Positions 5,897 through 24,447 of a stretch of DNA of 38,349 bases are shown here, piece after piece. The stretch comes from a virus (taxonomy: Duplodnaviria > Heunggongvirae > Uroviricota > Caudoviricetes): positions 1 to 38,349 of IMG/VR virus record IMGVR_UViG_2681813146_000009; one strand, written 5' to 3'. The position numbers and the translations under genes were made by a program. Under the pieces are notes generated by a model, which did no database searches, had not been told where the DNA came from, and saw only the letters and a list, made by a program, of their open reading frames with translations. The first letter of the stretch is position 1, and each line of letters begins with the position of its first letter.

Positions 5897-6052
5897 TCAC
5901 TCACCTGAGTTTCTTTCCAGCCAGCGACGGGCACCATTTTCGGTTTTAAACGTTTTGCTTTTTGTATACGTCATTGCGGTGAAGGTGCCGTCCTGGTTTG
6001 GAAACACGCCGTACACCAGAGATTCGTTGTTGCCAAGCTCGATAGTATCCAT
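5897..6052 (-). CDS. ydfA: YdfA-like small protein (51 aa), first gene of leftward operon
   Basis: Internal ATG of ORF 5897..6133 with GAGG 6 nt upstream; 51 aa matches K-12 YdfA length. Confidence 0.55.
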   Translation of the reverse strand: MDTIELGNNESLVYGVFPNQDGTFTAMTYTKSKTFKTENGARRWLERNSGE

Positions 6053-6231
6053 GCTGACCTCATTTCCCCTTAACGCCGGGGTAGCGGAACAAAAACCTGC
6101 TGCATAGTTATTAAAGTTGAACCCTGCCGTCATGTTCTTACGCCTCGGGCTGGCTACTTAACCCCTGACCACTGCCTGGTAACTCGAAGTATTGCCCTGC
6201 ATTCTGTAGGATGGGGTGAGGGAATGAATGA

Positions 6232-6277
6232 AGTTTAGAAAAACGAACTTTTCAGGTCAATGTTTTTTTATCAAAAC
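6232..6277 (-). promoter_or_regulatory. Candidate PL promoter (-35 TTGACC, 17-nt spacer, -10 TAAACT on minus strand) with adjacent operator-like site GTTTTTTTATCAAAAC (6262-6277)
   Basis: Sigma70-like hexamers read on minus strand upstream of ydfA-like; 16-bp site shares GTTTT..AAAAC arms with the OR sites. Confidence 0.4.
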
Positions 6278-6344
6278 ATTTTAAGCAGGCAGCTGTTAAG
6301 CCATCACCACGATGGCATACAGTTAATCAAATAGATGAGGTTGG

Positions 6345-16781: not shown

Positions 16782-17041
16782 TTAGTTTCCTTGTTTATGT
16801 CTTGCTGGTGATGTTCTGAAAAGTATAAATGATATTTTTGAATGTAAACCATAGAGCAGAATTATTTTTCTGATGTTGTTTATTGTTTATTTAAATGCAG
16901 GGTGGTTTATATCTCGTCTTGTAGTTTATCCATGCATATCTGCTTGATGATGAGGTTTTTATTTAAGGTATGGTTTTGTGTTTTTTCTGTATTACATGTC
17001 AGGTATTTTAAAGAATTATTTTTCAGATGGTGGAAAGAACC

Positions 17042-19003
17042 ATGGCATTTAAACACTATGATGTTGTCAGGGCGGCATCGCCGTCAGACCTTGCGAAACG
17101 ACTGACACAAAAACTGAAGGAGGGGTGGCAGCCATTTGGCAGTCCGGTGGCCATCACGCCTTATACCCTGATGCAGGCCATTGCGGCGGAAGGTGATGTC
17201 ACCACACCTGTGGTGGTGAAGCCGTCGGATGGAGAAGGCGCAGTTATCAGCACCACCAGCAACCCGGAGTATTACTTTGTTGTTGCCCTGGCCGGGCAGT
17301 CAAACGGTATGGCGTATGGTGAAGGGCTTCCGCTGCCGGAGACATATGACCGTCCGGACCCGCGTATTAAACAGCTGGCGCGTCGCAGCACTGTCACGCC
17401 GGGTGGTGCGTTCTGTAACTACAATGACATTATTCCTGCGGACCACTGCCTGCATGATGTTCAGGATTTGAGTAAGTTTTCACACCCGAAAGCCAGTGCA
17501 GCTCAGTATGGATGCGTGGGGCAGGGATTACATATCGCGAAGAAATTGTTGCCGTTTATTCCGGCGAATGCCGGTATTCTTCTGGTTCCGTGCTGCCGTG
17601 GTGGTTCTGCATTTTTGGCGGGCGATGAAGGTACCTTCAGCGAATCCACCGGCGCAAGCGAGACCTCGGCACGCTGGGGTGTAGATAAGCCACTGTACAA
17701 GGACCTGCTTACCCGTACTCAGGCCGCACTGAAGGCCAACCCTAAAAATATTCTGCTTGCAGTGGTCTGGATGCAGGGCGAGTTTGATTTGAAACAGGGT
17801 GCATACGCCACTCAGCCGGGGCTGTTTGATTCCATGGTGGAAAAATATCGTTCTGACCTGTCGGAATTCGGAGGTCAGTGTCTCGGGGGCTCTCCGTCAT
17901 CGGTTCCCTGGATTTGTGGCGACACGACCTACTACTGGAAGCAGACTTATTCTTCGCAATACGATGCGGTGTATGGTGCATACAAGACGAAATCCGCAAA
18001 AAAAATCTTCTTTGTGCCGTTTATGACGGATGAAAACGGGCGAAATGTGGGTACCAACGAGCCGTCAGAAGATCCGGATGTTGCGGATATTGGGTATTAC
18101 GGAGCCGGTGGTCGAACGGACGCCAAAACCTGGACGACGGCTGACCGTAAAACGCATTTTGGATCATGGGCACGTCGTGGGATTATTTCCGACCGTCTGG
18201 CAACGGCGATTCTTGTGCATGCCGGGAGAAACGCTGAATTCATTACCGGAAAACAGCCTGATACGGTGAAGCCCACCGGACCTTCCGGTGAAGGTACGGA
18301 GAGAGAGCCGGAAGCCCCGGTCAGTAACCGAACCCTGATGAGTCTGCTGGCGTCCGGCGAAGACCTGGCATCACAGGGCTGGCGCTATTATCACAAACCG
18401 GCGAGCGGAGACAATGTTAACAAAAACATTGCTGAAGCGGTGGTCAGTGATGCGGGGGCTACGGGAGGTAAGGCCCTGCAACTGAATAAACCGGAAAACC
18501 ACATCTGGTTTCTGGAGCATGATGCAGCCGGACAGGGAGTGGAGTTACTGAAGAAGGGGGGACGTGTGAGCGTACGGTTTAAGTTGCCGGGTTCACTGGT
18601 GCCGAATCAGTTTGCCCTGGGCATTTACTGGCAGTTGTCGTCCCTGCCGGAGGGAGTGACGCTGGCAGAGGAAGGCAACGACATGCTGATGTCCTTCTTT
18701 CTGCAGACGGATGCGACGAACCTGAACGCGATGCACCACAAGAAGCCGAATGCGAAGCTGGAAACGTTCGGGGTCTTTGATAACGGATGGCACACACTGG
18801 CTTTTGAGTTTGCCGGAAACAACAGCATTCAGGTGACGCCGGTACTGGATGAGAAACGGGGGACGCCGTTCACACTGGTGAAATCTCCGGCATCAGGGGC
18901 GGCGGACAAACTGCAACTGACAGGCATATCAAAGGCGGCGACATATACGCTGCTGATTGACAGTGTGAAGGTGGAAGTGAACAACGCGGACATCGCGGCA
19001 TGA
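17042..19003 (+). CDS. nanS-p: Prophage sialate O-acetylesterase NanS-p-like (N-terminal DUF1737-like region plus SASA-type esterase)
   Basis: 653-aa ORF starting MAFKHYDVV; recalled similarity to EHEC prophage NanS-p; position downstream of Q/tRNAs and upstream of lysis genes as in Stx phages. Confidence 0.8.
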   Translation: MAFKHYDVVRAASPSDLAKRLTQKLKEGWQPFGSPVAITPYTLMQAIAAEGDVTTPVVVKPSDGEGAVISTTSNPEYYFVVALAGQSNGMAYGEGLPLPETYDRPDPRIKQLARRSTVTPGGAFCNYNDIIPADHCLHDVQDLSKFSHPKASAAQYGCVGQGLHIAKKLLPFIPANAGILLVPCCRGGSAFLAGDEGTFSESTGASETSARWGVDKPLYKDLLTRTQAALKANPKNILLAVVWMQGEFDLKQGAYATQPGLFDSMVEKYRSDLSEFGGQCLGGSPSSVPWICGDTTYYWKQTYSSQYDAVYGAYKTKSAKKIFFVPFMTDENGRNVGTNEPSEDPDVADIGYYGAGGRTDAKTWTTADRKTHFGSWARRGIISDRLATAILVHAGRNAEFITGKQPDTVKPTGPSGEGTEREPEAPVSNRTLMSLLASGEDLASQGWRYYHKPASGDNVNKNIAEAVVSDAGATGGKALQLNKPENHIWFLEHDAAGQGVELLKKGGRVSVRFKLPGSLVPNQFALGIYWQLSSLPEGVTLAEEGNDMLMSFFLQTDATNLNAMHHKKPNAKLETFGVFDNGWHTLAFEFAGNNSIQVTPVLDEKRGTPFTLVKSPASGAADKLQLTGISKAATYTLLIDSVKVEVNNADIAA

Positions 19004-19139: not shown

Positions 19140-19322
19140 ATGACATTTATTCATCAGGTAATGCTGTACTTCTGTATGGCAGTCTGTGTTATGTATCTTC
19201 TTTCGGGTGGGTACAGGGCAGTGCGCGATTTCTGGCGCAGGCAGATTGATAAAAGGGCCGCTGAGAGAATCAGCGCCAGTCAGTCAGCCGGAAGCAAACC
19301 CGAAGATCCGCTCATTCCGTAG
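19140..19322 (+). CDS. Possible small membrane protein (60 aa)
   Basis: Hydrophobic N-terminal segment; weak RBS. Confidence 0.3.
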   Translation: MTFIHQVMLYFCMAVCVMYLLSGGYRAVRDFWRRQIDKRAAERISASQSAGSKPEDPLIP

Positions 19323-19359
19323 TCACTTTCTTGACAACACCTTTCAACGAGAAAATCCC

Positions 19360-19605
19360 ATGTCAGAAATCACATCCCTGGTCACTGCTGAGGCAGTGAA
19401 GGAAGTCCTGCGCTCTGAAGAAGTCCTGAGCGCACTGAAACAGAAACTCCGCCAGAACCTTGAGTCGCGTCTTGATGCAGAAGTGGATGCCATTCTGGAT
19501 GAGCTGCTGGGCGTACCAGCGGTTCCGGAGCCGGAAGGTATCGCGGGTGACGGGAGTGCTTCAGATGGCGGTGAACCCACACCTGACAGCGACATGATGA
19601 TGTAA
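19360..19605 (+). CDS. Hypothetical acidic protein (81 aa)
   Basis: Internal ATG of ORF 19186..19605; weak RBS. Confidence 0.4.
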
Positions 19606-19897: not shown

Positions 19898-19901
19898 AGT
19901 G

Positions 19902-20792
19902 ATGAATAAAAAATATGAACTGGTTGTTAAGGGGATAAATAATTACGGGGATAAGGTTACTGTTACTGTGAAGTCGGAAGGTGACGGGCAAGCGTCGCTG
20001 TTGTTGCCAGATGTGGCGATTAGTCTTGACCGTACTGAAGGTGCCACGCTGGAGTTTTACGAAGCTGAGGCGAAAAAGCAGGCGAAGCAGTTTTTCATGG
20101 ATGTTGCTGCCGGGTTATGTGAATGGAACGAACCGTTGCCGGAAAAGCGCCCCGTAATTTTAGAGGCGCAGGATGTGTTGATAACCTACAAAGGAAAGCT
20201 ACCGGGAAGAATTACTTGTTCTCTGAAGATGCCGCCGTCAACACTGCGGTCAGAAAAAGATGATGTTGAATCACGTATTGAAAAACTGGAGAGCTACGTC
20301 GTTGAGCTGAATAAGAAATGGTCGATATTGGTGCCTTCTGGCGATGAAAAGCAGTTTGCTGCGTTTGACGATTATTGTCGGAAAGTGATGAGCAGAAATC
20401 TCGCAGAGTGTTTCAGTATTCATAATGATAATTTCAGTGACCCGGAATGGGAGTGTAACCGGCCATCCTTTGTTGTATCCGGTGATGCTGGGAAAATAAC
20501 CATCTCAGAAAATGGGAAAGTAACACCTCCATCGCACCAGCACAGTGAGGAGCTCATTGAATTTGCCATTGATTACCTGAAGAACAATAAAAAGCAGGGG
20601 CTGATGAAGCGCGTTGGCCGTTGCATGGGATATCTTCAGGTAGCCGCTGAGATTGAAGCGCTGGCCAGTGGTGCTGATAAGGATGCAATTGTGCGGGAGG
20701 CTCTTCTTCGTGATTTTAATACTCCACCCTTTAAAAAAGTGCCGGCTTACTGGCTTCATCCGGGGCTGACTTATCTTAAAGTGCGTATTTAG
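19902..20792 (+). CDS. Hypothetical protein (296 aa) inserted between holin and endolysin
   Basis: ORF starts 4 nt after holin stop with GGGGAGAG RBS; no TM segment or motif I recognise. Confidence 0.7.
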   Translation: MNKKYELVVKGINNYGDKVTVTVKSEGDGQASLLLPDVAISLDRTEGATLEFYEAEAKKQAKQFFMDVAAGLCEWNEPLPEKRPVILEAQDVLITYKGKLPGRITCSLKMPPSTLRSEKDDVESRIEKLESYVVELNKKWSILVPSGDEKQFAAFDDYCRKVMSRNLAECFSIHNDNFSDPEWECNRPSFVVSGDAGKITISENGKVTPPSHQHSEELIEFAIDYLKNNKKQGLMKRVGRCMGYLQVAAEIEALASGADKDAIVREALLRDFNTPPFKKVPAYWLHPGLTYLKVRI

Positions 20793-21715: not shown

Positions 21716-21847
21716 ATGTCAGACAAACTCATAACGCTGGCGAAGATCCTCTGTGTAATTGTCGGCATTTCATTTTCACTAATGCTGGTTGCTCTTTTTC
21801 TTTCCATGGCCTGGATGATGTTGTCTTCGTCGGGGTTGCTGGGGTGA
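21716..21847 (+). CDS. Small membrane peptide (43 aa)
   Basis: AAGGGAGG RBS before ATG 21716; single hydrophobic helix. Confidence 0.4.
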
Positions 21848-22317
21848 ACATAAACCGAATGCTTTCCGCGTTTATCGTTATTCTGCTGGTGGCCTGTGGT
21901 GCGCTGTGGATGGCAACAGACCATTACCGTGATAACGCGATTACCTACAAAGCGCAGCGCGATAACAAAGCCAGTGAACTGAAGCTGGCGAACGCAACCA
22001 TTACTGATATGCAGGTGCGCCAGCGCGATGTTGCTGCGCTCGATGCAAAATACTCGAGGGAATTAGCCGATGCGAGAGCTGAAAATGAAACTCTTCGCGC
22101 TGACGTTGCCGCTGGTCGTAAGCGCCTGCGGATCAACGCCACCTGTCCAGGCTCCGTGCGTGAAGCCCCCACCACCTCCGGCGTGGATAATGCAACCGGC
22201 CCCCAACTGGCAGACACCGTTACACGGGATTATTTCACCCTCAGAGAGCGGCTGATGACGATGCACAAGCAACTGGAAGGGGCACAGGACTATATCCGCA
22301 CTCAGTGCCTGAAATAA
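21844..22317 (+). CDS. Rz: Spanin inner-membrane subunit Rz (start GTG 21844 or ATG 21859)
   Basis: N-terminal TM, coiled-coil; [15 protein letters not shown] motif as in lambda Rz. Confidence 0.85.
22070..22255 (+). CDS. Rz1: Spanin outer-membrane lipoprotein Rz1, embedded in Rz in +1 frame
   Basis: Lipobox VVSAC; proline-rich [14 protein letters not shown] matches lambda Rz1. Confidence 0.8.
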
Positions 22318-22627
22318 GTTTTGTTGATGCGCCGTATCGTCGCTATATTCCCTCATTAACAGAGACCGCAGCCCGACAGGGAGACTCCTCTGCGCGAGTG
22401 TGCGGGGATAATTAAAAACGATGCACACCGGGTTTTTACCGCGTTAATGATTCGCGGGTTTATCCCGGTGCGATGGTGGAAGAAACAGGAAGCTGTATTA
22501 CAGAAAGTGCTACTACTGTATCCCGATGCGATGTATGTAATGTGAGTCAGATAATGGCACAGGATGTGGTGATGTGGCAGTCTGGAACACAGGATATATT
22601 GTCAGAATAAGACCCGTAGGAATAAAA

Positions 22628-22954
22628 ATGAAAAGACGCCTTTTACTACTTTTTCTGTTATCTGTCCTGGCAGTGGGATGCTCGCAGCAAAAAGCTGATG
22701 AGCCCCGGCAATTAGTGACGGTGTATCCACGATATCCGGAATATGCTGCAGCAAATTATATCAAGGGGCTGGTTGAGGTTAAGTTCGATATTGGTGCTGA
22801 TGGGACTGTGACACGGATCGTTTTTCTCCGCTCAGAGCCTCATAATTTGTTTCGTGATGAAGTGGTGAAGGCCATGGCGAAATGGCGATTTGAAAAGAAT
22901 CGCCCCTGTCAGGGAGTGAAGAGACAATTTATCTTTACGCCGTCACGTCCTTGA
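22628..22954 (+). CDS. Lipoprotein with TonB C-terminal-like domain (108 aa)
   Basis: Signal peptide with lipobox LAVGC; YPxxA...GxVEVKFDIGADGTV...AMAKWRFE resembles TonB_C signature; AGGAATAAAA RBS. Confidence 0.7.
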   Translation: MKRRLLLLFLLSVLAVGCSQQKADEPRQLVTVYPRYPEYAAANYIKGLVEVKFDIGADGTVTRIVFLRSEPHNLFRDEVVKAMAKWRFEKNRPCQGVKRQFIFTPSRP

Positions 22955-23076
22955 TGCTTCCAGGTAGAGAGGGGCTGGACGCAGGAGAAAAATGAAAGAG
23001 CCAGCGGTTATATTTTTGTCATGGCTGACGAGGAATGATGGAAGAAGGCGTTGTATGCCACACAACGCCTCACTGT

Positions 23077-23256
23077 TCATTTCTTCTTTTTCTCTGGTGG
23101 AACCCGATGAATAAGAGTTGCACTGGTTTCCGATGAGATGGCGATATACTCGGGCAAAGTATGCTGGCAGTTTTCCAACTGGTCAAAAATACCTGCTCTC
23201 GTCTGTTGCAATGCCTGCAGCATGCGGCGGCAATGCGCCTTGCTTTTACTAACCAT
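23077..23256 (-). CDS. Hypothetical small protein (59 aa)
   Basis: Strong GAGGAAGGAAAG RBS before internal ATG 23256; longer 117-aa form rejected. Confidence 0.4.
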   Translation of the reverse strand: MVSKSKAHCRRMLQALQQTRAGIFDQLENCQHTLPEYIAISSETSATLIHRVPPEKKKK

Positions 23257-23317
23257 CTTTCCTTCCTCTATCAGTCGCTGCGTGAACTCATCATGTAATA
23301 CCAGGTAAATGCGGATG

Positions 23318-23569
23318 TTATCGGTTTTGGCTACGCAGCATAGTACAAAACGGACAGGTGCATCCCGGGACGGGGGAGGCGTCACATGTCCCTGTGATGG
23401 TTGTTCCGGGTAATGCACTGTGTGGGGCATAAAAATGTCCGATAATTTTACTTTCTACCGCAGTTAGTTGATTCGTTGGTCCTGGTAGCACATTGGGCGA
23501 GGATTTAAATGCCAGGCAACTGAAGGATGATGTTGCAAGGGAGATAGCGAGAATATTTCTGATTTTCAT
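23318..23569 (-). CDS. Small secreted Cys-containing peptide (83 aa precursor)
   Basis: N-terminal signal peptide MKIRNILAISLATSSFSCLA; C-terminal GTCDASPVPGCTCPFC; AGAGG RBS. Confidence 0.5.
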   Translation of the reverse strand: MKIRNILAISLATSSFSCLAFKSSPNVLPGPTNQLTAVESKIIGHFYAPHSALPGTTITGTCDASPVPGCTCPFCTMLRSQNR

Positions 23570-23717
23570 TTGATGATGCCTCTGTGTGAAATGACGGTAA
23601 ACGACGCACTTGTGCCGGCACATAATAGCAAGCACCATAATAGATCAGATTCGATTCTTGCTGTAAGTGATAATTATTCTCGTTTTCGGGTCCTTTCCGT
23701 CGATCCAACAGGTTACG

Positions 23718-23729
23718 GGGCGGCGACCT
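23718..23729. other. cosN cohesive-end site (GGGCGGCGACCT) with cosB-like flank
   Basis: Exact match to recalled lambda left cohesive end and following CGCGGGTTTTCGCTATTTATGAAAATTTT; lies upstream of Nu1. Confidence 0.85.
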
Positions 23730-23898
23730 CGCGGGTTTTCGCTATTTATGAAAATTTTTAGGGAAAAATCAGATCCGTTTTTCTTCTTTTTAACTGATTG
23801 ATTATCAATAGAATTTTAAAAATATAAAAGGATCTAACAAAGGCTGTTTTTGTTAGAAAACGCCATTTTCAGATCCTTTCTGGTTCCCGGGGGAGTGT

Positions 23899-24447
23899 AT
23901 GAACGTCAATAAGAAAAAACTGGCCGATATTTTTGGCGTTGATGTCAGGACCATCACCGCCTGGCAGAGTCAGGGGTTACCACTAGTTTCTGGTGGAGGG
24001 AAAGGGACTGAATCAGTTTTTGATACAACTGCTGCCATTCAGTGGTATGCGCAGAGGGAAGCTGATATTAAAAACGAAAAACTCCGTAAAGAGATCGAGG
24101 ATTTGAGGGCTGCCAGCGAATCAGACCTTCAGCCCGGCACCATTGATTACGAACGTTACCGACTGACGAAGGCACAGGCCGATGCACAGGAGCTGAAAAA
24201 TGCTCGTGAGGAAGGCCTTGTCCTCGAGACGGAGTTATTTACCTACATCTTTCAGCGAGTGGCACAGAATATATCAGGGATCCTTGTCCGTGTCCCTCAG
24301 ACACTGCAGCGTAAATACCCTGATATATCACCCGTACATCTTGATGCTGTGAAAACTGAAATCGCGAAAGCATCCGATGTGGCTTCTGAAGCCGGTGAGA
24401 ATGTGCGCAGGTGGATTGATGATTTCAGACGAACTGAGGGCGGCTAA
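23899..24447 (+). CDS. nu1: Terminase small subunit Nu1
   Basis: Strong similarity to lambda Nu1 by recall (NKKxLADIFG...). Confidence 0.9.

What the first reader, a model, noticed from the sequence alone, without database searches (positions are those of the whole stretch)
22628..22954. Prophage lipoprotein with a TonB C-terminal-like domain at the bor position
Immediately after Rz/Rz1, where lambda carries the bor lipoprotein, this prophage encodes a 108-aa lipoprotein whose mature part matches the TonB C-terminal signature (YPxxA, KVKFD, DG-V, WR-E). A stand-alone TonB-C domain could compete for TonB boxes of outer-membrane receptors and so exclude TonB-dependent phages or colicins, or alter iron uptake. 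The function is inference only.
Basis: partly seen in the sequence, partly recalled or inferred. Interest (0 to 1): 0.65.

Follow-up and report, generated by a model that had tools for sequence, protein, structure and literature searches.

The report
Prophage lipoprotein carrying a TonB C-terminal domain
A small prophage gene encodes an outer-membrane-anchored copy of the part of TonB that grips nutrient receptors; databases already label it, nobody seems to have tested it, and it most plausibly acts as a decoy that uncouples those receptors from TonB.

Summary
Window 22628-22954 (+) encodes a 108-aa protein with a lipoprotein signal peptide (lipobox AVGC, Cys18, Ser at +2). Its mature part is a TonB C-terminal domain: Pfam TonB_C scores 49 bits against a cut-off of 24.6, it is 40% identical to E. 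coli TonB 151-230 without gaps, and the AlphaFold model fits TonB structures at 0.9-1.1 A. It lacks TonB's membrane anchor and proline-rich spacer, so it cannot transduce energy.

The gene is not new. An identical protein is annotated in phage 21 ("TonB C-terminal domain protein"), and RefSeq calls it "TonB family protein". It occurs in 1617 of 5426 complete E. coli genomes.

It does not replace bor. Bor lies between Rz and this gene in phage 21 and in 45 of 80 related viral contigs.

It belongs to a conserved family of small TonB_C lipoproteins (Cys invariant in 30 sequences, dN/dS 0.09-0.30). Members also sit in non-phage chromosomal sites in Klebsiella, Raoultella, Serratia and Erwinia.

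The decoy idea (capping TonB boxes at the outer membrane) is the best-supported mechanism but remains untested. Phage 21 uses LamB, so this would not be self-exclusion. Expression in lysogens is not shown. Interest is moderate.

The parts
22628..22954 (+). CDS of the 108-aa lipoprotein with a TonB C-terminal domain (stop codon included)
   Evidence: ORF and translation. Identical protein annotated in phage 21 and RefSeq. Pfam TonB_C 49.2 bits.
22618..22621 (+). Shine-Dalgarno AGGA, 6 nt before the ATG
   Evidence: Read from the sequence. Phage 21 annotation places an RBS at the same spot.
22628..22681 (+). Lipoprotein signal peptide, residues 1-18, with lipobox A-V-G-C and the acylated Cys18 (codon 22679-22681)
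   Evidence: Sequence. Cys invariant in the 30-sequence family alignment; in the 29 sequences where the lipobox scan parsed a lipobox, +2 is never Asp.
22682..22702 (+). Short tether, residues 19-25 (SQQKADE), low model confidence
   Evidence: pLDDT below 50 at residues 19-21 and low up to about residue 25.
22703..22942 (+). TonB_C domain, residues 26-105, equivalent to E. coli TonB 153-232: helix 38-42, strands 47-55 and 61-70, helix 76-83, strand 94-103
   Evidence: phmmer against PDB; AlphaFold model; Foldseek hits to 1u07, 2gsk_B and 2grx_C at rmsd 0.9-1.1 A.
21844..22317 (+). Rz i-spanin, the upstream neighbour and last gene of the lysis cassette
   Evidence: Pfam Phage_lysis 161 bits; phrog_13.
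22085..22255 (+). Rz1 o-spanin embedded in Rz in another frame
   Evidence: phrog_3198, E=4e-26.
22328..22500 (.). Generic lambdoid backbone DNA between Rz and the gene; not specific to the TonB_C gene
   Evidence: Matches 432 phage records including lambda, whereas only 15 carry the gene.
23718..23729 (+). cosN cohesive-end sequence GGGCGGCGACCT; the gene therefore lies about 0.76 kb from the right end of the packaged chromosome
   Evidence: Single exact match in the window. Nu1 starts at 23899.

Best explanation
[quoted passage not shown] There a 7-residue tether holds a TonB C-terminal domain just under the periplasmic mouths of TonB-dependent transporters. It has the receptor-binding domain of TonB but neither the inner-membrane anchor nor the proline-rich spacer that couple TonB to ExbB/ExbD. 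It could therefore pair its exposed last strand with the TonB box of transporters, or of incoming colicins, yet could not pull on it. It would act as a non-productive cap that competes with TonB. The expected effect is lower TonB-dependent import: resistance to TonB-dependent phages (T1, phi80), group B colicins and microcins, at some cost in siderophore and B12 uptake. Shown here: the domain identity, the fold, the lipoprotein architecture, purifying selection and the genomic position. Inferred: outer-membrane localisation, TonB-box binding, the inhibitory outcome, and when the gene is expressed. It reads in the same direction as the late operon, so late expression is the default, and expression in lysogens is unproven.
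For: The domain aligns to E. coli TonB 151-230 without a gap at 40% identity. The YP motif is kept (Y36 P37 = Y163 P164), as are the positions aligned with F180, G186, F202, W213, Y215 and F230. The protein covers 26-103 = residues 1-78 of the 81-residue TonB chain in the BtuB:TonB complex (2gsk_B). The AlphaFold model (pLDDT above 95 in the domain) superposes on receptor-bound TonB (2gsk_B, 2grx_C) at 1.1 A over 76-79 residues. TonB-box capture is parallel beta-augmentation, mostly through backbone hydrogen bonds, so it depends little on side chains (PMC6699858). [quoted passage not shown] 2001, as cited in PMC9841981). The lipobox Cys is invariant in 30 family members; in the 29 of them where a lipobox was parsed, none has Asp at +2, and 15-24 residues separate the Cys from the PxYP motif. 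This fits an obligatory short outer-membrane tether. dN/dS is 0.12 between the two E. coli alleles and 0.09-0.30 among chromosomal members. There is precedent for phage outer-membrane lipoproteins that act on the periplasmic face of a TonB-dependent transporter: Llp and Cor.
Against: There is no experimental or co-folding evidence that this protein binds a TonB box. The residues aligned with TonB Q160 and R166 differ (Y33; Y39, nearly invariant in the family), although as I recall Q160 substitutions are tolerated in TonB. Phage 21, with an identical gene, uses LamB, so the protein cannot be a self-exclusion device like Cor. I found no sigma-70 promoter on the + strand and no Fur box upstream. 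A constitutive TonB inhibitor would hurt iron acquisition in the ExPEC strains that carry it, such as UTI89. I recall no report of T1 or phi80 resistance in phage 21 lysogens. There is no PADLOC hit. Chromosomal relatives outside prophages suggest a housekeeping role that need not be inhibitory. I could not check whether a 7-residue tether is geometrically compatible with the docked pose, because no coordinates were available.
Confidence: 0.4

Rival explanations
1. The protein binds TonB itself rather than the transporters. It would pair with the C-terminal domain of host TonB, through the same sticky edge strand and aromatic cluster that let TonB CTD fragments dimerise. This would hold TonB unproductively at the outer membrane. 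The outcome is again inhibition of TonB-dependent uptake, but the target differs.
For: The closest structural match is 1u07, whose two chains A and B both match; TonB CTD fragments such as this crystallise as dimers, from my own knowledge. The aromatic positions equivalent to F180, F202, W213, Y215 and F230 are kept.
Against: No direct evidence. The physiological relevance of CTD dimers is debated (my own knowledge). A receptor-side decoy explains the outer-membrane tether more simply.
Confidence: 0.1
2. It is a lysogenic-conversion or envelope moron of the bor/lom type that does not inhibit TonB. The TonB_C fold would be used as a general periplasmic binding module, for peptidoglycan, Lpp/OmpA or another partner, changing envelope properties or host interaction.
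For: It lies in the moron zone next to bor. GC is 47% against 53-55% in the flanking lysis and terminase genes. Relatives sit as stand-alone chromosomal genes in Klebsiella, Raoultella, Serratia and Erwinia with no conserved neighbours. The gene is common in extraintestinal pathogenic strains that need TonB. Position 39 is a family-specific, nearly invariant Tyr where TonB has R166.
Against: Within the PDB the fold matches TonB CTDs specifically, with TolA and others far behind. No alternative partner is indicated by any result.
Confidence: 0.2
3. It is a lysis accessory or spanin-like protein, as the PHROG label 'Rz-like spanin' (phrog_1267) suggests. It would act with the lysis cassette at the end of the lytic cycle.
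For: phrog_1267 match at E=5e-43. It is an outer-membrane lipoprotein encoded just after Rz/Rz1, on the late-operon strand.
Against: The window already has a complete Rz/Rz1 pair, which falls in different PHROGs (phrog_13 and phrog_3198), so the label is not backed by homology. The mature part is a globular TonB_C domain, unlike the short proline-rich o-spanins. Chromosomal homologues have no lysis genes nearby.
Confidence: 0.04
4. It is a non-functional fragment of host tonB picked up by the phage, as older annotations imply ('partial tonB-like membrane protein', 'TonB fragment').
For: Older record names. Only the C-terminal third of TonB is present.
Against: dN/dS is 0.12 at dS about 1.5 between alleles. 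There is a dedicated lipoprotein signal with an invariant Cys. The same-length ORF is retained in the two large 90%-identity protein clusters (368 and 395 member sequences), and the gene is found at 80% or more coverage in 1612 E. coli genomes. The family separates from true TonB CTDs in a distance tree, though without bootstrap support.
Confidence: 0.02

Closest known systems
C-terminal domain of E. coli TonB (PDB 1U07, 1XX3; receptor-bound in 2GSK and 2GRX)
   Same: Same fold (rmsd 0.9-1.1 A) and 40% identity without gaps over TonB 151-230. The YP motif and the aromatic core are kept. It covers the same residues that are ordered in the BtuB complex.
   Different: It has no N-terminal transmembrane anchor and no proline-rich spacer, and it ends 4 residues short of TonB's C-terminus. 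A lipoprotein signal peptide anchors it to the opposite membrane. The positions of Q160 and R166 are Tyr. TonB equivalog models score 45-69 bits against cut-offs of 265-448.
Periplasmically expressed TonB C-terminal fragments (Howard et al. 2001, J Bacteriol 183:5885)
   Same: A TonB receptor-binding domain uncoupled from ExbB/ExbD and placed in the periplasm. Such fragments inhibit iron import through TonB-dependent transporters (as cited in PMC9841981).
   Different: Those were laboratory constructs, soluble and overexpressed. This is a natural, conserved, membrane-tethered protein whose effect has not been measured. I could not read the original paper.
Phage superinfection-exclusion lipoproteins Llp (T5) and Cor (phi80, N15, HK022)
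   Same: Small phage-encoded lipoproteins of the outer-membrane inner leaflet. They act on the periplasmic face of a TonB-dependent transporter and block phage infection (bioRxiv 10.64898/2026.03.26.714494).
   Different: The fold is unrelated. Llp and Cor are specific to FhuA and are carried by FhuA-using phages as self-exclusion. This protein would be receptor-agnostic, targeting any TonB box, and phage 21 uses LamB.
Lambda Bor / Iss lipoprotein
   Same: A small lipoprotein moron in the same region between the lysis cassette and cos.
   Different: No sequence or fold similarity. Bor is on the opposite strand, and the two coexist in phage 21 and in 45 of 80 related loci.

Membership tests
TonB_C domain family (Pfam PF03544 / TIGR01352) | Profile score above the curated threshold | tested here: met
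   PF03544 49.2 bits against 24.6; TIGR01352 47.4 bits against 27.1.
TonB_C domain family (Pfam PF03544 / TIGR01352) | Fold of two helices packed on a three-stranded sheet with a long C-terminal edge strand, plus the conserved YP motif | tested here: met
   AlphaFold model with pLDDT above 95. Foldseek to 1u07, 2gsk_B and 2grx_C at rmsd 0.9-1.1 A, TM 0.87-0.91 on the target. Y36-P37 = Y163-P164.
TonB_C domain family (Pfam PF03544 / TIGR01352) | Binds the TonB box of a transporter by beta-augmentation | not testable with these tools
   No complex prediction or coordinates were available. It is inferred only from the fit to receptor-bound TonB and the backbone nature of the contact.
Functional TonB energy transducer | N-terminal inner-membrane anchor that couples to ExbB/ExbD | tested here: not met
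   The N-terminus is a lipoprotein signal peptide that is cleaved at Cys18. Five TonB equivalog models score 45-69 bits against cut-offs of 265-448 and match only their C-terminal third.
Functional TonB energy transducer | Proline-rich periplasm-spanning spacer | tested here: not met
   Only 7 residues (SQQKADE) lie between Cys18 and the domain.
Bacterial outer-membrane lipoprotein | Signal peptide with lipobox and invariant Cys; no inner-membrane retention signal (Asp at +2) | tested here: met
   MKRR-LLLLFLLSVL-AVGC followed by SQQ. Cys is invariant in 30 family sequences, and +2 is S/T/A/V in the 29 that were parsed. Acylation and localisation themselves are not testable here.
Small TonB_C lipoproteins of Enterobacterales (unnamed; phrog_1267) | About 105-130 aa: lipobox, 15-24 residues to PxYP, S-x-P-x-x-L-F-D motif, ends a few residues after the last strand | tested here: met
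   Alignments A2 and A4. phrog_1267 E=5e-43, also hit by the Klebsiella phage and Klebsiella chromosomal members.
Spanins (Rz1-type o-spanin) | Homology to o-spanins, and need for an i-spanin partner with no other spanin present | tested here: not met
   The window's Rz and Rz1 fall in phrog_13 and phrog_3198. A complete pair is already present. Chromosomal relatives lack lysis genes.
Cor / Llp superinfection-exclusion lipoproteins | Sequence or fold homology to Cor/Llp | tested here: not met
   The only Pfam hit is TonB_C. The top 16 PDB fold matches are all TonB C-terminal domains or TonB homologues, followed by much weaker TolA and HasB matches; no Llp or Cor structure appears. Functional analogy remains possible.
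Bor / Iss family | Sequence homology to Bor | tested here: not met
   No Bor family hit in Pfam or NCBIfam. The Bor of phage 21 is a separate gene on the other strand.
Known anti-phage defence systems (PADLOC) | Match to a PADLOC model | tested here: not met
   No hit at E up to 0.1.

The most novel reading that the evidence does not exclude
Outer-membrane-tethered TonB C-terminal domains form an unrecognised, receptor-agnostic class of inhibitors of TonB-dependent import. By capping any exposed TonB box they would give a cell broad protection against TonB-dependent phages, group B colicins and microcins. This contrasts with the receptor-specific Cor and Llp lipoproteins. The family would serve both as a prophage moron, present in about 30% of complete E. 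coli genomes, and as a chromosomal gene in Klebsiella, Raoultella, Serratia, Erwinia and Pantoea.
Probability: 0.3. Interest if true: 0.7.

Novelty: new variant of a known kind. Interest (0 to 1): 0.45.

Why it matters
The TonB system is the gateway for iron, vitamin B12, many phages, colicins, microcins and siderophore-antibiotic conjugates. A natural, widespread, membrane-tethered TonB decoy would be a new way for prophages, and for some chromosomes, to tune that gateway. It would change how we read the phage, colicin and siderophore-drug susceptibility of the roughly 30% of E. coli genomes that carry it, including UTI89, ATCC 25922 and O157:H7. It would also give a compact natural inhibitor of the TonB-box interaction, which is already pursued as an antibiotic target (PMC9841981). 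If the protein does not inhibit TonB, it is still a conserved TonB_C-fold lipoprotein of unknown role with a simple set of decisive experiments.

Tried and rejected
1. Literature. Ten full-text searches were run. The targeted ones combined TonB with prophage, lipoprotein, superinfection exclusion, phage 21, tonB-like, decoy, moron or TonB C-terminal. None found a functional study of this gene. The phage 21 genome announcement does not discuss it. The Howard 2001 paper is not held.
2. Own promoter or iron regulation. The consensus scan gave no + strand promoter upstream. One of the two terminator-like hits lies on the + strand about 470 bp downstream of the gene (23425-23440), and the total of two is not above the shuffled expectation. 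The best Fur-box matches upstream are 10-11 of 19, which is background level. Expression timing stays open.
3. Conserved upstream block as a gene-specific regulator. The block is about 90% identical between the two alleles, against 73% for the CDS. It turned out to be generic lambdoid backbone, found in 432 phage records including lambda. There is no Rfam match in 21800-24000.
4. The upstream 45-aa ORF (22473-22610), annotated in phage 21. It is not conserved in the JLK-2012 allele's flank and has no PHROG or PADLOC hit, so it is probably not a partner gene.
5. Self-exclusion via the phage's own receptor. This is rejected for phage 21, which uses LamB. The J C-terminus of the closest full prophage matches J proteins of unknown receptor type, so that test was uninformative.
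6. Prophage context of distant homologues. tblastn with lysis and terminase proteins found nothing in the Klebsiella, Raoultella, Erwinia or Serratia loci, and ORF inspection shows ordinary chromosomal neighbours.
7. TonB_C fold in viral structure predictions. BFVD gave no match at E up to 0.001, so nothing was learned from viral relatives.
8. Defence-system databases. No PADLOC hit.
9. Complex prediction with a TonB-box peptide. This is not possible with the tools, and model coordinates could not be inspected.

Full report
WHAT IS THERE

Window 22628-22954 (+) is an intact ORF of 108 codons. It starts with ATG and has an AGGA Shine-Dalgarno at 22618-22621. The product begins MKRRLLLLFLLSVLAVGC|SQQ: a basic n-region, a hydrophobic core and a lipobox ending in Cys18. 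Ser follows at +2, so there is no Asp inner-membrane retention signal.

The rest of the protein is a TonB C-terminal domain.
- Pfam TonB_C scores 49.2 bits against a 24.6 cut-off (E=7e-13, residues 33-99).
- TIGR01352 scores 47.4 bits against 27.1.
- Five full-length TonB "equivalog" models match only with their C-terminal third, at 45-69 bits against cut-offs of 265-448.
- Against solved structures, the protein aligns without a gap to E. coli TonB. Query 24-103 equals TonB 151-230 at about 40% identity, E about 1e-14.

With that offset of +127, Y36-P37 correspond to the Y163-P164 motif. F53, G59, F75, W86, F88 and F103 correspond to F180, G186, F202, W213, Y215 and F230. Two positions differ: Y33 stands where TonB has Q160, and Y39 where it has R166. 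The protein ends at the equivalent of TonB T235.

The protein covers residues 1-78 of the 81-residue TonB chain seen in the BtuB:TonB crystal (2gsk_B). It therefore spans almost exactly the part of TonB that is ordered when bound to a receptor.

An AlphaFold2 model was built from a 30-sequence family alignment. It has pLDDT above 95 for residues 30-105 and shows helix 38-42, strands 47-55 and 61-70, helix 76-83 and strand 94-103. Foldseek places it on E. coli TonB CTD at rmsd 0.9-1.1 A over 76-81 residues (1u07, 2gsk_B, 2grx_C). TolA and everything else fall far behind.

CONTEXT

Upstream are a phage lysozyme (20829-21362), Rz (21844-22317) and the embedded Rz1 (22085-22255). Downstream are cosN (GGGCGGCGACCT at 23718-23729) and Nu1 and terminase (23899 onward). 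The gene is thus the last + strand gene before the right end of the packaged chromosome, and it reads in the same direction as the late operon.

It is not "in place of" bor.
- In phage 21, bor lies on the opposite strand between Rz and an identical copy of this gene.
- Among 80 IMG/VR loci, 45 have Rz, bor, then the gene. About 28 have Rz then the gene, as in the window. Two have another ORF in between.
- In all of these loci the gene is on the + strand, and wherever enough flanking DNA was recovered it lies between a lysis cassette and a terminase. This holds even where the terminase type differs, as in JLK-2012 and Klebsiella phage ST13-OXA48phi12.4.

The stretch 22318-23727 has 47% G+C against 53-55% for the neighbouring lysis and terminase genes, which is moron-like.

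The first ~170 nt of the Rz-to-gene spacer are generic lambdoid backbone, present in 432 phage records including lambda. DNA specific to this gene starts near 22500.

HOW COMMON IT IS, AND WHETHER IT IS ALREADY KNOWN

The identical protein is annotated as "TonB C-terminal domain protein" in phage 21 (OL657228). In other records it is "TonB family protein", "TonB fragment" or "partial tonB-like membrane protein ... CP-933N", and in RefSeq it is WP_000830178.1. The domain call is therefore already public.

The gene is present in 1617 of 5426 complete E. coli genomes. In 1202 genomes the best copy is at least 99% identical to this allele; these include UTI89 and ATCC 25922. In 392 genomes the best copy belongs to a second allele at about 73% nucleotide identity, and these include O157:H7. 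Only 15 of 50,697 phage records carry it.

Ten full-text literature searches were run, most of them built around TonB and prophage terms, and none found a functional study. The phage 21 genome announcement does not discuss the gene.

A REAL, SELECTED FAMILY, NOT A tonB FRAGMENT

Between the two E. coli alleles dN/dS is 0.12, with dS about 1.5.

An exhaustive profile-free search found about 20 further short proteins (105-135 aa) that match from the signal peptide to the end. A genome scan found members in Klebsiella, Raoultella, Erwinia and Serratia at 37-49% identity. These sit in ordinary chromosomal surroundings with no lysis or terminase genes: near lacZ-lacI in Klebsiella and Raoultella, and next to what look like dsbB and nhaB in Serratia. 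Among them dN/dS is 0.09-0.30.

In a 30-sequence alignment the lipobox Cys is invariant. In the 29 sequences where the lipobox scan parsed a lipobox, +2 is never Asp, the Cys lies 15-24 residues before the PxYP motif, and most proteins stop a few residues after the last strand.

In a neighbour-joining tree without bootstrap support, these lipoproteins, phage and chromosomal together, separate from genuine TonB C-terminal domains.

The phage gene is therefore a member of a distinct family of small TonB_C lipoproteins and not a recent piece of E. coli tonB.

PHROGs files the family as phrog_1267 with the label "Rz-like spanin". The window's own Rz and Rz1 fall in other PHROGs, phrog_13 and phrog_3198. 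The label therefore looks like annotation by neighbourhood.

MECHANISM

What defines TonB as an energy transducer is absent here: the N-terminal inner-membrane anchor that couples to ExbB/ExbD, and the proline-rich spacer. What remains is the receptor-binding domain, now tethered by 7 residues to a lipid anchor predicted to go to the outer membrane.

TonB boxes are captured by parallel beta-augmentation on the last long strand of the domain, mostly through backbone hydrogen bonds (PMC6699858). The model superposes on receptor-bound TonB at 1.1 A. [quoted passage not shown] 2001, as cited in PMC9841981). Phage lipoproteins that act on the periplasmic face of a TonB-dependent transporter are known: Llp and Cor.

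The most economical reading is a non-productive cap on TonB boxes that competes with TonB. I give this a confidence of 0.4. The fold, the architecture, the selection and the position are shown. Localisation, binding, inhibition and timing are inferred.

EVIDENCE THAT LIMITS THE CLAIM

- Phage 21 uses LamB, so the protein cannot serve self-exclusion as Cor does for FhuA-using phages.
- I found no + strand promoter or Fur box upstream. By default the gene would be read with the late operon, where the benefit of a decoy is less obvious.
- A constitutive inhibitor would be costly in the iron-dependent ExPEC strains that carry the gene.
- The chromosomal relatives suggest a role not tied to phage warfare.
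- I recall no report that phage 21 lysogens resist T1 or phi80.

The rivals are: binding host TonB itself (0.1); a non-inhibitory envelope or virulence moron that uses the fold as a binding module (0.2); a lysis accessory (0.04); a dead fragment (0.02, effectively refuted).

COMPARISON AND NOVELTY

The protein is a member of the TonB_C domain family (thresholds and fold met). It is not a TonB (anchor and spacer tested and absent). It is not a spanin, nor Bor, nor Cor/Llp, and it matches no PADLOC defence model.

It would work like the dominant-negative TonB fragments made in the laboratory, and it would be deployed like Llp or Cor. It would differ by being receptor-agnostic.

The gene and its domain are already annotated. 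What is not in the literature I could search is the lipoprotein family as such, its chromosomal members, or any functional test. I rate it a new variant of a known kind, with interest 0.45. The hypothesis is attractive and cheap to test, and the gene is widespread, but the function rests on inference alone.

Noticed in passing
window 22328-22500: This block of the Rz-to-gene spacer is about 80-90% conserved across 432 lambdoid phage records, including lambda itself, whether or not they carry the TonB_C gene. In phage 21 it lies to the right of bor, and in the window bor is missing while the block remains. It has no Rfam match, and its function (bor-side regulatory DNA or a late-transcript element) is unknown.
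   Followed up: partly
window 23077-23430 (-) and 23318-23572 (-): Two overlapping minus-strand ORFs lie between the TonB_C gene and cos. One is 117 aa, and its last 59 aa match phrog_4843 (RefSeq annotates only those 59 aa as hypothetical). The other is 84 aa with a signal-peptide-like start (MKIRNILAISLATSSFSCLA). Most related viral contigs match only one of the two at half length or more (a few match both or neither). There are no Pfam or PADLOC hits.
   Followed up: partly
window 23663-23687: The two best Fur-box-like matches in the whole window (14 of 19, GTAAGTGATAATTATTCTCGTTTTC) lie 30-55 bp left of cosN. From memory, lambda has a similar GTGATAATGATTATC sequence in its cosQ neighbourhood, so this is probably packaging-site DNA and not iron regulation.
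   Followed up: partly
window 17027-19003 (+): An intact 658-aa ORF has DUF1737, a SASA sialate O-acetylesterase domain and DUF6645, which is a NanS-p-type prophage esterase. It lies between the Q region and the lysis genes. In E. coli 7/2, whose TonB_C region is identical, the same position holds only a truncated DUF1737 pseudogene, so the window comes from a related but different prophage.
   Followed up: no
window 19899-20792 (+) and 19186-19605 (+): The lysis cassette is interrupted or padded by a 297-aa DUF1327 protein and a 139-aa DUF826 protein upstream of the lysozyme. RefSeq marks a YdfR-family pseudogene at the corresponding place in strain 7/2.
   Followed up: no
protein P0139 (152 aa; not in the window): This is a second, apparently independent fusion of a lipobox (LALAGC) to a TonB C-terminal domain. 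It has a longer linker and a full TonB-like C-terminus, and it clusters with genuine TonB domains rather than with the small-lipoprotein family. This hints that lipid-anchored TonB_C domains arose more than once.
   Followed up: no
L012 (Raoultella planticola) 6001-6336 versus Klebsiella phage ST13-OXA48phi12.4 (L004 4956-5291): The Klebsiella phage copy is closest to a Raoultella chromosomal copy (dS 0.24). That copy sits in an island with what look, from reading the translations, like a toxin-antitoxin pair and a transposase fragment. This suggests recent exchange between chromosomal islands and phages.
   Followed up: partly
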